Shown here: piece after piece, positions 9,700 to 20,325 of the stretch
Layout: every line of letters starts with the position of its first letter
Position numbering within the stretch: position 1 is the stretch's first letter
Sequence record: PZ150740.1
Strand: one strand, 5' to 3'
DNA length: 50,699 bases
Source: a phage
Made by a program: the position numbers and the translations under genes
Notes under the pieces: model-generated
Database searches by the model: none
Seen by the model: only the letters and a program-made list of their open reading frames with translations
Told to the model about the DNA's origin: nothing

Positions 9700-9816
9700 A
9701 TGATAGATAAAGCTATTGATTTCTTTTTTTATTCGATTATTGGTGCGGTTGGCTTTTTGGTTACTGCTGCTGGCCTGGCTATTATCTTAGCTGTTATTAA
9801 GGGGATTATGCGATGA
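9700..9816 (+). CDS. small single-TM peptide (38 aa, not in ORF track)
   Basis: RBS GAGGTGG then ATG; hydrophobic core IIGAVGFLVTAAGLAIILAVI. Confidence 0.35.
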   Translation: MIDKAIDFFFYSIIGAVGFLVTAAGLAIILAVIKGIMR

Positions 9817-9977
9817 GTCAAGACGGATTTTTTGAACGCCTTCAAATGGCAGAAGATGCCGGACTAAATAAAGAGGCGGCGCTTGAGGTGGCATATAAAA
9901 TTAAGACTCTTGATGAGGCTTTAGGTGATATGGATATGGATCTGAATCAAGCGCAATATTTGCAGATCCCACTATGA
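9813..9977 (+). CDS. small acidic protein (54 aa, not in ORF track)
   Basis: ATGA overlap with upstream ORF; hand-translated MSQDGFFERLQ... Confidence 0.35.
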   Translation: MSQDGFFERLQMAEDAGLNKEAALEVAYKIKTLDEALGDMDMDLNQAQYLQIPL

Positions 9978-10171
9978 TTGTTAATGATTGTGGATGCGAT
10001 TTCGATCCTGGTTGTGCGCGCTGTTTTCCGTTTTGAGGTAATTACGATGTATAAAGGTTTAATATTCTCCCTATTGATGGATCTGGTAAAGCCGTTAAAG
10101 ATTGGGCTGATAATGGCTATAAGTGCATTTGCTTTAATGCTGACGGCGGCGATCACGGTGATTACCAGTCA

Positions 10172-10756
10172 GTGCGCATACAGCATGAGAATATCGAATA
10201 CGTTAACGTCTGGATTGATGAAAGATTTTACCACCGCGCGCGCTGGGAGGAATGGGGCATTCCTGACTTTATTATGGCATTTCCACCATGCACCGACCTT
10301 GCAAATAGCGGATCTCGCCATTGGGCCAAAAAACGCCTTGAGAATCCATCGTTCCAGGATGAGGCCGCCGACACTTGCAGGATCGCGGCTGATATAGCTG
10401 ATTATTTCGGTGTTCCTTACATGATCGAAAATCCGGTTGGCAAGTTGTCAACGTTATGGCGAAAGCCTGATTATACGTTCCATCCGTGCGATTACGCTGG
10501 CTATCTGCCGGAAGATGATAAACATCCCGACTTCCCTGATATTATTCCGGCGCGGGATCGCTACTTTAAGAAAACGTGCCTCTGGACTGGCAACGGCTTT
10601 GTTATTCCTCCACGCGCTTTAATCCTGCCGAAAGAGGAAGACAAAGATAATCCAGGCTGGGCCAAAACTGGCGGCAAGTCATCGCGCACAAAGATGATCC
10701 GCTCCCTCACTCCGCGCGGATTTGCTCGCGCCGTCTTTGAGTCAAACTCAAAATAG
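10172..10756 (+). CDS. cytosine-C5 methyltransferase-like protein (catalytic core; N-terminus uncertain, frame open from 10055)
   Basis: FPPC (PC-motif-like), ENP(V)G (ENV-like), PARDRYF and GNGFV motifs in C5-MTase order; no ATG for motif-I region. Confidence 0.4.
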   Translation: MRIQHENIEYVNVWIDERFYHRARWEEWGIPDFIMAFPPCTDLANSGSRHWAKKRLENPSFQDEAADTCRIAADIADYFGVPYMIENPVGKLSTLWRKPDYTFHPCDYAGYLPEDDKHPDFPDIIPARDRYFKKTCLWTGNGFVIPPRALILPKEEDKDNPGWAKTGGKSSRTKMIRSLTPRGFARAVFESNSK

Positions 10757-10796
10757 CACTTTTTGTTAAAAGCCAGGTGTAAAAACCTGGCATAAT
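10752..10796 (+). promoter_or_regulatory. box promoter unit (-10-like CATAAT)
   Basis: Box with 1 mismatch; spacer palindrome GCCAGG-tgtaaaaa-CCTGGC. Confidence 0.55.
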
Positions 10797-10825
10797 CACA
10801 TCGAACAAACAAAGGAGATCTGATC

Positions 10826-11026
10826 ATGAATGTTATCTGTAATGAAACCAACGTATTGATGAAAGGCCGTTTTAAAACGGTTTATCAGAAGATTGCAGGA
10901 AGTAATGATGTGATCGAGGTGGAAGAATTCAGGTTAAGACGCTTGTTAAGGGTAGCCGCTGGCTTCCAGCAAACCGAGATGATTACCGCGCCATTAACAC
11001 AAAAACCGTTCTTTGCACGTTTGTAG
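10826..11026 (+). CDS. hypothetical protein
   Basis: ORF track; box unit 10752-10796 upstream. Confidence 0.5.
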   Translation: MNVICNETNVLMKGRFKTVYQKIAGSNDVIEVEEFRLRRLLRVAAGFQQTEMITAPLTQKPFFARL

Positions 11027-11034
11027 ATCATAAC

Positions 11035-11211
11035 ATGCCGTGCAAAAAGCACTTTAAGCAGGGCAAGCGATACCGAATCGAGAAAGGGCGACCGCTTGGA
11101 AGCGTTGCGGGTTATGTTTTTGATGAGTGCGGCGACCGCTGGAACCTGTACCGTGAAGAGGTCGGATTCTCTGCTGGCGGCTGTTATCTGTTTGAGGGTA
11201 AATATCTGTGA
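11035..11211 (+). CDS. small Cys-containing protein (58 aa, not in ORF track)
   Basis: Hand-translated MPCKKHFKQGKRYRIEKGRPLG... Confidence 0.35.
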   Translation: MPCKKHFKQGKRYRIEKGRPLGSVAGYVFDECGDRWNLYREEVGFSAGGCYLFEGKYL

Positions 11212-14303: not shown

Positions 14304-14788
14304 TCAATCCATTGTGCAATATTTGTATTCGACCTTGCGCCTGTTAAGTAAGCCTTTAGACTTCTCGCGCTTTCCTGTTTTGGGGTTATGGTAATACGTC
14401 CAACGATAAAGCTGATCGCAAGCCTCGTTTAATTTCCCCTGGTTGATGAGTTTCAGCATTGTTGAATTTCTGAAAGCTCCAACTCCTGCATTATAAGTGA
14501 ATGAGTACATTGCTGCACGCATACTATCAGGAATGTCAACCTTAACTTGCTTGTCAACTTCTTTTTTAGCAACCTGGATATGTTTAGCCAACAAAGCATC
14601 ACACTCTTTTTAGTGTACGTTTTCCCCAGGATAACATCTGGTCCGGTTATTCCTGCGCAAACAGTCCATACTCCCGCAATATCTTTGTATGGCTTGTATC
14701 TTACCCCTTCGATCTCTTCAAGAAGTGGAGAAGTCAAGGCAACCGCAACGCCAAAGGCCGCAGCCGCTACCTTGTTCTTTATGCTCAT
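14304..14788 (-). CDS. SAR endolysin (lysozyme), reading frame interrupted by 1-nt frameshift near 14600-14612
   Basis: Two track ORFs in different frames; N-part has SAR-like TMD and [19 protein letters not shown]-part [17 protein letters not shown]; resembles P21-type lysozyme as recalled. Confidence 0.6.
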
Positions 14789-17106: not shown

Positions 17107-17832
17107 TTAGCTCCGTTTGCGTGCGCGACGTTCGGTTACAGAAGGGCAAATATCGCTGATCTTAACGTATCGCGTTTTCTGCTCCTCGCCTTCTTTAAGT
17201 TTGCGCATGACAAAAATCACGCTTCCCTTGTTGTTGCCCTGCACAGGCTCACCAGTCAATCCAGACACAAAGGCGATTCTTCCGGTGCGGGAGTATTCTA
17301 CTCCACCCTCTTCGTAAACCTCGCCAGTGATCCAGATGATTTCAGCCGCGTTTTTCTGCGCTTCATAAAACCATGCTGTAGAGTTGTCGGCTGGCAACAA
17401 AACATCAATTTGGTTGTTGTGCTCCATTTGCTCAATTGCTTTCTTGATAAATGGAGTTGGGTTGCTGTACGGTGGGTTAAGCCATACGTGCTTGTTGCTA
17501 CCCCACCAACGCTTTAAGCAGTTTGTTTCCTTGCTATAGAACTTCTCGCAAACTGCGTTTTCCTGGCTTGCTGCTGCGTCGAGATCGTATTCACCAAATT
17601 CTGATTCCATCCACTCCACGATCTCTTGAGGAGTGCTCCACATATCGCGCACAACGTCCGGCGTGGTGCTTCCAGCGTATCGGTTGCCGCTTACCTTATA
17701 ATATTGATTTGGCTTTACTGCCTGGTAATGGCCTCCAGTTGCAAGGGCATTCCCTATAAACGTTTCTCTCTCCAACTGCTCAAAGCTAACGAATGCGTCA
17801 TGAGTGTCTTTATCTAAAATATCTTTAGCCAT
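17107..17832 (-). CDS. dam: DNA N6-adenine methyltransferase (Dam-like)
   Basis: NPPY motif (WLNPPYSNP); box unit upstream. Confidence 0.75.
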   Translation of the reverse strand: MAKDILDKDTHDAFVSFEQLERETFIGNALATGGHYQAVKPNQYYKVSGNRYAGSTTPDVVRDMWSTPQEIVEWMESEFGEYDLDAAASQENAVCEKFYSKETNCLKRWWGSNKHVWLNPPYSNPTPFIKKAIEQMEHNNQIDVLLPADNSTAWFYEAQKNAAEIIWITGEVYEEGGVEYSRTGRIAFVSGLTGEPVQGNNKGSVIFVMRKLKEGEEQKTRYVKISDICPSVTERRARKRS

Positions 17833-17871: not shown

Positions 17872-17916
17872 ATTATGGCGCAATCCATCGCGCCAGTTTT
17901 AACAAAAAGTGCTATT
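17872..17916 (-). promoter_or_regulatory. box promoter unit upstream of Dam gene (-10-like CATAAT)
   Basis: Perfect box 17896-17916; spacer hairpin GGCGC/GCGCC. Confidence 0.55.
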
Positions 17917-18232
17917 TAAGCATGTATTCAATAGCCAACTTAAACTGATTGAATCCGTAGGCGACCGCAGCGAATCCTCCTAAGCTGCGAACGCGACGCA
18001 AAAAAGCCTTTTGTTCATCGCTGACTGGTGATGCTTTCCCCTTGCCTGATTTATTTACTCGTTTGATCTCAATCGCTGCAAAGGGGTATTTTCCGTTTAA
18101 ACCAATCAGGATGATGAAATCGCTTACTCCCTTAACCAAGCCGGACTGCTGATCAATCATCGCCGTTACTTTAGACTTCTCATTCTCGTTTACCGTATGC
18201 CACGCCAGCAAGTAAGGATGAGCATAAGTCAA
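17912..18232 (-). CDS. VRR-NUC domain nuclease
   Basis: KGVSDFII ... IEIK ... SDEQKAFLRRVRSLGG pattern typical of VRR-NUC; start codon uncertain (TTG in track). Confidence 0.6.
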   Translation of the reverse strand: MTYAHPYLLAWHTVNENEKSKVTAMIDQQSGLVKGVSDFIILIGLNGKYPFAAIEIKRVNKSGKGKASPVSDEQKAFLRRVRSLGGFAAVAYGFNQFKLAIEYMLK

Positions 18233-18329
18233 CCACTGAAAACTATCTATCTGGTGATTAACTTCCTTTCTCGTGTCGGTTGATCTCTTTCGTAAAACTC
18301 AAGATAATCGCCTTTATCAGTTATAGCCA

Positions 18330-18860
18330 TTAAACAAACTCCCGTTTTGCAATGTTATCCTCACCTTTGCCGTTTTTGCGATGCGTTACGCGTACAGGAG
18401 GCATGATGTGATGAGCGTATGACATTATTTTACGCGCATTTCTATAGCTCGCCACCATACCAGCAATCTTGCGATCCGGTATGTGCTGCAATGCTATTTT
18501 TCTCCATATCGTCCGGCAAATGTTGCTTTCTGACTCAGGGAAAAATCTTTCGTATGCCTTGAACGTGTCGCCGTTGGCCTCAAGCTCATAGCAAAAAACA
18601 ATTCCTTTCTGGTTTTTCGTCATATCAACGCGGAAAGATTTAACGTTGCACCAATCGTTTTTGGTGTAGTGCTTACCGCTTAACTTCTCGTTAGGATCGA
18701 CAAGAGAAATATCGCAACAACGGCAAACTCTCGCCACTACGTCGTTTTTTGTTCCGCAACCGCGCTTGATTATCTTTTTTGTTCTCTGATCTACCTGGTC
18801 CTCGCAAATTCTGTAAGTCCAAAAATGCTCGCATCTCTTCCCGTTATCGTCTACGTGCAT
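18330..18860 (-). CDS. Cys-rich (zinc-ribbon-like) protein
   Basis: Multiple CxxC-like pairs (CEHF...C, CRCC). Confidence 0.45.
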   Translation of the reverse strand: MHVDDNGKRCEHFWTYRICEDQVDQRTKKIIKRGCGTKNDVVARVCRCCDISLVDPNEKLSGKHYTKNDWCNVKSFRVDMTKNQKGIVFCYELEANGDTFKAYERFFPESESNICRTIWRKIALQHIPDRKIAGMVASYRNARKIMSYAHHIMPPVRVTHRKNGKGEDNIAKREFV

Positions 18861-18909
18861 ACATCGGCGAGCGTAAAAGCTGTTTAGCGTTCCACATATC
18901 GGGCAAGTC

Positions 18910-20325
18910 TTAGGCTCTTTCCGTTTGTAAATCTCTTTTGAAATTGCGCTTGCTCAAGAATTCGATCGAATACAAATCCCCTAACTCATCCATAGTACCT
19001 GCAAAATCCAATACAAGATGATCTTTTTTCTTGAATCCCTGCTCAATGTGCCATTGCTTAAGCAGTCGCATACCGCGCCCCAAAAGCTGGATAAGCAATG
19101 TTAGAGATCCTATCTTTCTCAGTATTACCGAAGTATCCCAAAACGGAACGTTAACGCCAGTGGTAAGCGCCTGTACCTGGAAGATGTATTTTACTTTCCC
19201 CTCGTATGCCTCCCTCAGCCACTCTTTACGCTGATTATCTCCAGTTTTGCCAGTTATGATCCTGTATTCAACGCCTTGCGGCAGTGCGGCGGCGGCCTCC
19301 TTGCAGTGTCTTTCCCCTGCGCATGTAACTAAAACTCCGTTCCTGTCTTTGCATATCTCATGGACTTTAGCCATGATTTTCTGTGTCATTGTTGCGTCTT
19401 GATGGATCTTTTCTTCCATCTTGCGCAATGTTTTAGCGTCAAAGTCTGAAACGCCATCCTCGCTACTGGCTTCGAACTCTGAAAGGTCATACCCCAGGTC
19501 GCCTACGTCGCCGAAATTTGTTGGCACTACCGAACCGAATTTGATTAAGTAGTTTGTGTCTATGTTAGTAACCTGCTCACGCCAGAATCCCTTTTTGTTC
19601 TTATCTTCAACCAGTATTGGAACCACGCCGCGAAATTCAGATCCAGTCATACCGAATATTCGCAATTCGTGCCCGTATGCCTCGCGACACCTGCGCATCA
19701 TTTCCATGATTATTACGGTGTACTGTGTGCGCCCTGTTCCGAACATTCGATCGCCATTGGAATCAAATTGCTGTTCTTCTCCAATCAGTACAGGCAAATC
19801 CTTCTTAGTGGTCATCTGCTGGTAAGATTCATTATTTTCTATCGCGTCCGCGAGATCCTCCCAATCCACCTGGTGACATTCATCAATACCGATAACGTGC
19901 GGAACATAATCACCTAACGACTTAAACAATCCGTTTACTACAGTGCCCTCAGAACCGACTACGATCGGAAAGTATGCGCTTTTTGTTTTCAGTCCGGCAC
20001 AATAGATTGAGTTTGGCACGCCAAGATTGCTGATCTCTTCCGAATCCTGATCAACAATTTCAGCCTGGCGAGCAAGCACCATCATTTTCAATCCCATTTT
20101 GCGGCATTGCGCCGCAACCATCGCAAACATCAATGTTTTGCCAGCCGACACAGAAGCCTTAACAAAGAAAGGATGCTCATAGTTTTTCATGCGCTTTGCG
20201 ATCTCGGCATACGCAACGCACTGATAAGGATAAGGCACTATATTGCCAACCGTGAATCGCTCTTGGATGCTTTTTATTACTGCCTCGCCTAACGCCGATA
20301 TTTGTTTTTCTATATTTGGAATCAT
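18910..20325 (-). CDS. SF2 DNA helicase (DExH-box)
   Basis: Walker A SAGKT; GIDECHQ (DECH box). Confidence 0.8.
   Translation of the reverse strand: MIPNIEKQISALGEAVIKSIQERFTVGNIVPYPYQCVAYAEIAKRMKNYEHPFFVKASVSAGKTLMFAMVAAQCRKMGLKMMVLARQAEIVDQDSEEISNLGVPNSIYCAGLKTKSAYFPIVVGSEGTVVNGLFKSLGDYVPHVIGIDECHQVDWEDLADAIENNESYQQMTTKKDLPVLIGEEQQFDSNGDRMFGTGRTQYTVIIMEMMRRCREAYGHELRIFGMTGSEFRGVVPILVEDKNKKGFWREQVTNIDTNYLIKFGSVVPTNFGDVGDLGYDLSEFEASSEDGVSDFDAKTLRKMEEKIHQDATMTQKIMAKVHEICKDRNGVLVTCAGERHCKEAAAALPQGVEYRIITGKTGDNQRKEWLREAYEGKVKYIFQVQALTTGVNVPFWDTSVILRKIGSLTLLIQLLGRGMRLLKQWHIEQGFKKKDHLVLDFAGTMDELGDLYSIEFLSKRNFKRDLQTERA

What the first reader, a model, noticed from the sequence alone, without database searches (positions are those of the whole stretch)
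9984..10756. Cytosine-C5 methyltransferase-like ORF lacking an in-frame start for its motif-I region, overlapped by a second open frame
The track ORF 10172-10756 (GTG start) has FPPC, ENP(V)G, PARDRYF and GNGFV in the order of C5-MTase motifs IV, VI, VIII and X. Its frame is open from 10055 and encodes LIDGSGKAV (possible degenerate motif I) but has no start codon there. An ATG at 10047 in another frame (MYKGLIFSL...) stays open to 10397, so two frames are open together for about 340 nt. Possibilities are a frameshifted MTase, a truncated catalytically dead MTase-like protein, or a genuine overlapping gene. The residues deviate from canonical PCQ and ENV, so the enzymatic assignment is tentative.
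Basis: partly seen in the sequence, partly recalled or inferred. Interest (0 to 1): 0.55.

Follow-up and report, generated by a model that had tools for sequence, protein, structure and literature searches.

The report
Frameshifted phage Dcm methyltransferase gene, probably artefact
This is the well-known Dcm-like cytosine methyltransferase gene of T1-like E. coli phages, split into two reading frames by one missing T that is most likely a sequencing or assembly error, so it is ordinary.

The parts
10047..10756 (+). dcm: Dcm-like C5-cytosine DNA methyltransferase gene. It is 710 nt here and 711 nt (236 aa) in relatives, and is frameshifted after codon 9.
10074..10075 (+). Frameshift site: TT here, TTT in all relatives aligned. 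It is codon 10, the Phe of motif I (S-L-F-D-G-S-G).
   Evidence: Alignments. The blastn gap list reports it at 10076. The frameshifted 25-mer is absent from IMG/VR, JGI metagenomes and GTDB genomes.
10035..10038 (+). Shine-Dalgarno GAGG, 8 nt upstream of the ATG at 10047.
   Evidence: Two K42 retron escapers carry a point mutation 9 bp upstream of the dcm start. In KarlJaspers that position falls in this GAGG.
10047..10397 (+). Reading frame entered from the true start codon: 9 genuine residues (MYKGLIFSL) followed by 107 out-of-frame residues. This is the 'second open frame'.
   Evidence: It has no Pfam hit and the frame is not conserved in homologues.
10172..10756 (+). The 194-aa GTG ORF. 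It equals Dcm residues 43-236 and carries motifs IV (PPC82) and VI (E128-N-P) and the C-terminal motifs, but not the AdoMet-binding motif I.
9813..10036 (+). Upstream 74-aa gene (phrog_9323), cut to 54 aa by a private 1-nt deletion at about 9943-9944 (TT to T, right after a GATC).
10826..11211 (+). Downstream 128-aa gene, split into 66-aa and 58-aa ORFs by a private 1-nt deletion at about 10931 (a C of CCAGG).
14307..14788 (-). Endolysin (163 aa in relatives), frameshifted at 14612 (T6 to T5). A further deletion at 14307 removes the G of a GATC.
17915..20325 (-). VRR-NUC nuclease (139 aa, frameshift at 18283) and ATP-dependent helicase (665 aa, frameshifts at 18923 and 18971).

Best explanation
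The locus is the ordinary dcm gene of a Warwickvirus-type (Drexlerviridae, T1-like) E. coli phage. Its product is a compact 236-aa C5-cytosine DNA methyltransferase. In a close relative this enzyme methylates CCWGG sites, and it is the protein sensed by the retron Ec86 (Eco1) defence. In this window one T is missing from a TTT run in codon 10. Translation from the true ATG (10047) therefore leaves the methyltransferase frame after 9 residues, and the rest of the gene appears as a start-less open frame. The missing T is most likely a sequencing or assembly error and not a property of the phage. Shown here: the deletion, the identity of the repaired product, the C5-MTase fold, and the cluster of gene-breaking deletions. 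Taken from the literature: the enzymatic activity and the retron link. Inferred: that the deletions are errors.
For: 1. The single-T deletion appears against MikeNSara, FritzSarasin, JLBYU26, KarlJaspers and a JGI contig. The seven full-length hits at 84-99% identity span 711 nt (one spans 705) against 710 nt in the window. All 30 top records are exactly 3 nt longer over 9700-11000.
2. Adding one T restores a protein identical (236/236) to MikeNSara Dcm, with no other damage.
3. Comparison of the whole window with three relatives shows isolated, uncompensated 1-nt deletions at 9944, 10076, 10931, 14307, 14612, 15081, 17835, 18283, 18923 and 18971. All lie within 9.9-19 kb.
4. tblastn with 97 MikeNSara proteins shows frame breaks only in six genes of this stretch: the 74-aa gene, dcm, the 128-aa gene, endolysin, VRR-NUC and the 665-aa helicase. 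Their products are cut to 54, 116, 66, 111, 27 and 471 aa.
5. Indels elsewhere in the window are intergenic or are compensated pairs in divergent stretches.
6. Six of the ten deletions lie in or within 5 nt of GATC or CCWGG, against a 12% background (binomial p about 4e-4, tested post hoc). The rest lie in homopolymers. This is the known error profile of nanopore consensus on Dam/Dcm-methylated DNA (PMC6591954).
8. The 711-bp dcm of K42 has C82, E128, K175 and K176 at the same numbering as the repaired protein here. It gives 5mC on msDNA and triggers retron Ec86 (bioRxiv 10.1101/2023.08.16.553469; published in Cell Rep 2024;43:114857 according to the reference list read).
Against: No reads or platform information are available, so an error cannot be proven. 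The restriction of the deletions to 9.9-19 kb is unexplained, because GATC and CCWGG are evenly spread over the window. Window-private substitutions look like natural third-position divergence and are not enriched near these motifs. dcm is dispensable, and 1-bp frameshifts in it are selected by retron Ec86. An independent dcm frameshift exists in an otherwise intact metagenomic genome. A real knockout is therefore biologically plausible.
Confidence: 0.85

Rival explanations
1. The frameshift is a genuine loss-of-function mutation. The phage carries a dcm-null allele, for example one selected during propagation on a host with retron Ec86 (E. coli B/BL21 lineage) or another defence that senses 5mC, or one that is simply tolerated because dcm is dispensable.
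For: All four K42 escapers from retron Ec86 carried mutations that disrupt, or may disrupt, dcm, and one was a 1-bp deletion causing a frameshift. The JGI contig Ga0495776_010417 carries an independent 2-nt deletion in a (CG)4 repeat of dcm, with the product stopping after 72 aa. Its neighbours, including endolysin, Dam, VRR-NUC and both helicases, are all intact. The repaired protein shows no further decay, which would fit a very recent mutation.
Against: The same 9-kb stretch has seven other gene-breaking 1-nt deletions, including in the endolysin and a helicase, which cannot all be real in a viable phage. At that density of about one per kb, a hit in a 711-nt gene is expected by chance and needs no selection. 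The allele is found nowhere else.
Confidence: 0.12
2. A truncated methyltransferase-like protein, residues 43-236 expressed from the GTG at 10172, is the real product. It would be catalytically dead and would act as a DNA-binding or decoy protein.
For: The 194-aa ORF exists and keeps motifs IV and VI and the C-terminal motifs.
Against: It lacks the AdoMet-binding motif I and the first beta-strand of the Rossmann fold. No relative has this arrangement; all relatives encode the full 236 aa from the ATG behind a GAGG Shine-Dalgarno sequence. The exact 194-aa product is not on record anywhere.
Confidence: 0.02
3. The two co-open frames reflect a genuine overlapping gene or a programmed ribosomal frameshift.
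For: The alternative frame is stop-free for 111 codons in the Warwickvirus relatives as well.
Against: Those relatives are 95-99% identical, so this says little. At 85% nucleotide identity (KarlJaspers) the frame has a stop at codon 44. In K50_evo13 it has stops at codons 0, 3 and 43, and in 011D2 at 41, 49, 62 and 81. The frame's product has no family hit. There is no X XXY YYZ slippery heptamer at TCC CTA TTG ATG. Relatives need no frameshift because their ORF is continuous.
Confidence: 0.01

Closest known systems
Dcm of Drexlerviridae phage K42 / KarlJaspers (Bas06), the trigger of retron Ec86 (Eco1); Wang et al., bioRxiv 10.1101/2023.08.16.553469, Cell Rep 2024;43:114857
   Same: The gene length is the same (711 bp, 236 aa). 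The genomic position is the same, downstream of the 74-aa gene and upstream of the 128-aa gene and the 526-aa helicase. The repaired protein is 214/236 identical to KarlJaspers Dcm. C82, E128, K175 and K176 carry the same numbering.
   Different: The window copy lacks one T in codon 10 and cannot make the enzyme as written. The K42 sequence itself was not available, so KarlJaspers stood in for it; the preprint reports the two genomes as 95.4% identical.
Classical C5-cytosine DNA methyltransferases (Pfam PF00145: M.HhaI, M.HaeIII, E. coli Dcm, and the DNMT3A/B catalytic domain)
   Different: At 236 aa it is much shorter, with a very small target-recognition region. Motif IV is PCT (not PCQ) and motif VI is ENP (not ENV). 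It scores below detection with Pfam and NCBIfam models. None of the 120 listed homologues, out of 3,033 found, has a precomputed Pfam domain.
Nanopore consensus errors at Dam/Dcm-methylated motifs and homopolymers (Wick et al. 2019, PMC6591954)
   Same: The window-private indels in 9.9-19 kb are all deletions. They lie in homopolymers or in or next to GATC or CCWGG.
   Different: The sequencing platform of this record is unknown. The errors are confined to one 9-kb stretch instead of being spread over the genome.

Membership tests
C5-cytosine DNA methyltransferase | Motif I, the AdoMet-binding F-x-G-x-G, at the N-terminus and in frame with a start codon | tested here: not met
   As written, the ATG frame leaves the MTase frame at codon 10, and the MTase frame has no start before V43. 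After restoring one T the motif is SLFDGSG, which is invariant in 30 homologues.
C5-cytosine DNA methyltransferase | Motif IV Pro-Cys with the catalytic cysteine | tested here: met
   FPPC82TDL is present, and P and C are invariant in alignment A3. It aligns with SPCNDLS of DNMT3B.
C5-cytosine DNA methyltransferase | Motif VI E-N-V with the conserved glutamate | tested here: met
   MIE128NPV is present, and E-N-P is invariant in alignment A3. The third residue is P where the classical motif has V.
C5-cytosine DNA methyltransferase | Significant match to the family profile (Pfam PF00145 or NCBIfam) | tested here: not met
   There is no hit at E<=1 for the repaired 236-aa protein or for the 194-aa ORF. 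A profile search of the PDB gives only E about 0.07 to DNMT3B.
C5-cytosine DNA methyltransferase | C5-MTase fold | tested here: met
C5-cytosine DNA methyltransferase | Produces 5-methylcytosine in DNA | not testable with these tools
   The literature covers only the orthologue. K42 Dcm gives 5mC on Ec86 msDNA by LC-MS, dependent on the CCTGG site, and a C82A/E128A/K175A/K176A mutant is inactive.
Phage Dcm that triggers retron Ec86 | Orthology with the 711-bp dcm of KarlJaspers-type Drexlerviridae (same length, synteny and catalytic residue numbering) | tested here: met
   The repaired gene is 711 nt and 214/236 identical to KarlJaspers Dcm. The flanking genes are the same, and C82, E128, K175 and K176 are in place.
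Phage Dcm that triggers retron Ec86 | Activates retron Ec86 toxicity | not testable with these tools
   This needs expression in an Ec86-positive host.
Programmed ribosomal frameshift | A slippery site, with both frames needed and conserved in relatives | tested here: not met
   There is no slippery heptamer at 10068-10079, and relatives have one continuous ORF.
Overlapping (overprinted) gene | The alternative frame stays open across diverged homologues | tested here: not met
   Stops occur at codon 44 (KarlJaspers), at codons 0, 3 and 43 (K50_evo13) and at codons 41, 49 and 62 (011D2).

The most novel reading that the evidence does not exclude
The missing T is real. This phage would then be a natural dcm-null variant, and dcm would be a liability gene that is repeatedly inactivated by slippage at short repeats (TTT here, (CG)4 in the JGI contig Ga0495776_010417, and dG451 in the laboratory escaper). 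Such loss would let the phage evade retron Ec86 or other defences that sense phage cytosine methylation. In that case on/off variants of the retron trigger would coexist in natural Drexlerviridae populations.
Probability: 0.1. Interest if true: 0.4.

Novelty: already known. Interest (0 to 1): 0.12.

Why it matters
It matters mainly for annotation. As deposited, the sequence would yield a pseudogene or a mis-called 194-aa 'methyltransferase'. At least five other genes in the window, among them the endolysin, VRR-NUC and a helicase, have the same problem, so the 9.9-19 kb stretch of this record should be re-checked against reads. The gene itself matters biologically because it is the phage cytosine methyltransferase that retron Ec86 senses. 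The family has more than 3,000 members yet escapes Pfam and NCBIfam models, so it is easy to overlook or mislabel. If the frameshift were real, it would be a natural example of loss of a retron trigger.

Tried and rejected
- Pfam and NCBIfam scans of the repaired protein, the 194-aa ORF and the alternative-frame product gave no hits.
- phmmer and profile searches of PDB sequences gave only borderline DNMT3B matches, E 0.05-0.07.
- A look-up of the exact 194-aa product, meant to identify the source record, found nothing on record.
- Exact-string scans for the frameshifted allele in IMG/VR, JGI metagenomes and GTDB genomes gave 0 hits. The intact allele gave 2 hits in IMG/VR.
- The overlapping-gene reading was rejected because the alternative frame has stops in diverged homologues.
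- The programmed-frameshift reading was rejected because there is no slippery site and relatives have a continuous ORF.
- I tested whether window-private substitutions also cluster at GATC or CCWGG, or in 9.9-19 kb, which would be further error evidence. They do not: 37 of 574 lie near motifs, and most look like natural third-position changes. The artefact argument therefore rests on the deletions alone.
- The longer annotated start (ATG 9984, 257 aa, used in some relatives) was rejected in favour of ATG 10047. The extension overlaps the repaired upstream gene by 53 nt, is not conserved in the family alignment, has low pLDDT, and lacks the GAGG Shine-Dalgarno sequence that precedes 10047.

Full report
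**What is in the sequence.** The window is a complete genome of a T1-like phage (Drexlerviridae, Tempevirinae, Warwickvirus type). It is 96-98% identical to Escherichia phages MikeNSara, vB_EcoS-95, JLBYU26, SECphi27, tonijn, Poky and FritzSarasin/Bas04.
- ORF 10172-10756 (GTG start, 194 aa) contains FPPC, ENPVG, PARDRYF and GNGFV.
- Its frame is stop-free from 10055 and reads RFNILPIDGSGKAV..., with no start codon before 10172.
- The ATG at 10047 opens another frame (MYKGLIFSL...) that runs to 10397.
- The reported span 9984-10756 is 773 nt, which is not a multiple of three.

**Cause of the two frames.**
- In relatives the corresponding CDS is intact. It is annotated either as 774 nt (257 aa, from an upstream ATG) or as 711 nt (236 aa, from the ATG that corresponds to 10047).
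- Alignments show that the window has CTATTGATGG where MikeNSara, FritzSarasin, JLBYU26, KarlJaspers and a JGI contig have CTATTTGATGG. One T is missing from a TTT run, leaving TT at 10074-10075.
- This is codon 10, the Phe of S-L-F-D-G-S-G, the AdoMet-binding motif I.
- Re-inserting the T gives a 711-nt ORF. Its product matches MikeNSara's at 236/236 residues, FritzSarasin's at 228/236 and KarlJaspers Dcm at 214/236. It is also essentially identical to the representative of a 320-member protein cluster.
- The true start is the ATG at 10047. It sits 8 nt behind GAGG (10035-10038), which overlaps the stop codon of the repaired upstream gene.
- The longer N-terminus annotated in some records is not conserved and is modelled with low confidence.

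**What the gene is.**
- Pfam and NCBIfam do not recognise even the repaired protein. None of the 120 listed homologues, out of 3,033 found, has a Pfam domain on record.
- It matches PHROG 757, 'DNA methyltransferase', at E=2e-84.
- A 30-sequence alignment shows invariant FDGSG, PPC, ENP and a C-terminal RSLTPRG block.
- The literature settles the function for a close orthologue. Wang et al. (bioRxiv 10.1101/2023.08.16.553469; Cell Rep 2024;43:114857 according to the reference list read) studied the 711-bp dcm of the KarlJaspers-like phage K42.
  - It produces 5-methylcytosine on the msDNA of retron Ec86.
  - Its catalytic and substrate-binding residues are C82, E128, K175 and K176, which is exactly the numbering of the repaired protein here.
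  - It triggers the retron defence.
  - All four phage escapers carried mutations that disrupt, or may disrupt, dcm. [quoted passage not shown]
  - In KarlJaspers that upstream position lies in the GAGG, which supports the start assignment.

**The second open frame.** It is simply the +1 frame of dcm, entered because of the deletion.
- It is open in the near-identical Warwickvirus relatives.
- It has stops at codon 44 in KarlJaspers, at codons 0, 3 and 43 in Klebsiella phage K50_evo13, and at codons 41, 49, 62 and 81 in phage 011D2.
- Its product matches no family.
- There is no slippery heptamer at the site.
- An overlapping gene and a programmed frameshift are therefore both rejected.

**Artefact or real mutation?** blastn of the whole window against three relatives lists many indels. 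Most are compensated pairs in divergent patches or lie in intergenic homopolymers.
- The isolated, uncompensated ones are all 1-nt deletions in the window: 9944, 10076, 10931, 14307, 14612, 15081, 17835, 18283, 18923 and 18971. All lie between 9.9 and 19 kb.
- tblastn with 97 MikeNSara proteins shows frame breaks in exactly six genes, all in this stretch. The table gives the length in relatives and the length of the product in the window.

| Gene | Length in relatives (aa) | Product in the window (aa) |
|---|---|---|
| 74-aa gene | 74 | 54 |
| dcm | 236 | 116 |
| 128-aa gene | 128 | 66 |
| endolysin | 163 | 111 |
| VRR-NUC nuclease | 139 | 27 |
| ATP-dependent helicase | 665 | 471 |

- Every other gene in the window is intact.
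- A phage that forms plaques cannot lack its endolysin and also carry this many broken replication genes. At about one deletion per kb in this stretch, a hit in a 711-nt gene is expected without any selection.
- Six of the ten deletions lie in or within 5 nt of GATC or CCWGG, where 12% would be expected (binomial p about 4e-4, a post hoc test). Two remove the G of GATC and one removes a C of CCAGG. The others lie in homopolymers.
- That is the published profile of nanopore consensus errors on Dam/Dcm-methylated enterobacterial DNA (PMC6591954).
- The frameshifted 25-mer occurs nowhere in IMG/VR, JGI metagenomes or GTDB genomes.

I therefore rate an assembly or sequencing artefact at about 0.85.

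**What speaks for a real knockout.**
- dcm is dispensable and is counter-selected by retron Ec86.
- I found an independent case. The JGI contig Ga0495776_010417 (49.6 kb) has an intact TTT but has lost 2 nt from a (CG)4 repeat about 160 nt downstream, so Dcm stops after 72 residues.
- All of that contig's neighbouring genes are intact: the 74-aa and 128-aa genes, the 526-aa helicase, endolysin (163 aa), Dam (241 aa), VRR-NUC (139 aa) and the 665-aa helicase.
- Two other viral contigs from the same sample carry an intact 236-aa dcm.
- Natural dcm-null variants therefore probably exist, and the window's allele could be one (about 0.12). Nothing in the window requires that reading.

**Unexplained.**
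- The gene-breaking deletions are confined to 9.9-19 kb although GATC and CCWGG are evenly distributed over the window.
- Window-private substitutions show no error-like enrichment.

**Verdict.** The gene is an already known and experimentally characterised phage Dcm. The oddity is most likely an artefact, so interest is low.

Noticed in passing
window 9813-10036 and 10826-11211: Both neighbours of dcm are also frameshifted by private 1-nt deletions. The 74-aa gene is hit at about 9944 (TT to T) and the 128-aa gene at about 10931 (CC to C inside CCAGG).
   Followed up: yes
window 14307-14788, 17915-18330 and 18333-20325 (minus strand): The endolysin (deletion at 14612), the VRR-NUC nuclease (18283) and the 665-aa ATP-dependent helicase (18923 and 18971) are frameshifted relative to all relatives. 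No gene outside 9.9-19 kb is broken.
   Followed up: yes
window 9944, 10076, 10931, 14307, 18283 and 18971; also 11075-11076: Six of the ten isolated deletions lie in or within 5 nt of GATC or CCWGG (p about 4e-4, post hoc). A private AG to GA swap at 11075-76 destroys another GATC. This fits basecalling errors at methylated motifs, but the restriction to one 9-kb stretch is unexplained.
   Followed up: partly
L012 6573-7281 (JGI contig Ga0495776_010417, sample 3300045988): This contig has an independent 2-nt deletion in the (CG)4 repeat of dcm (equivalent to window ~10236-10237), so the product stops after 72 aa, while all neighbouring genes are intact. Two other viral contigs from the same sample (L010, L011) have an intact 236-aa dcm. 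It may be a natural dcm-null variant.
   Followed up: partly
protein family of window 10047-10756 (alignment A3): The family has more than 3,000 members of 227-260 aa. It has a clear C5-MTase fold and invariant FDGSG, PPC and ENP, yet it is invisible to Pfam-A and NCBIfam models, and no listed member has a precomputed Pfam domain.
   Followed up: yes
relatives L001-L003 (CDS 1786-2559) versus Poky, tonijn and KarlJaspers: The start of dcm is annotated inconsistently: 257 aa from an upstream ATG that overlaps the 74-aa gene, or 236 aa from the ATG behind GAGG. The 236-aa form is the one supported.
   Followed up: yes
L005 38539-39066 (phage Poky): Poky carries an HNH endonuclease gene between the 74-aa gene and dcm, overlapping dcm's annotated start (38573). 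The window and most relatives lack it.
   Followed up: no
whole window: GATC occurs 297 times, against about 194 expected from base composition alone. The phage also encodes a Dam methyltransferase (17110-17832, minus strand).
   Followed up: no
phage collection hits: Twenty to twenty-two records labelled 'Campylobacter phage' (host C. jejuni) match this E. coli T1-like phage type. One example is A119, which is 28.8 kb and unannotated. The host labels look doubtful.
   Followed up: no
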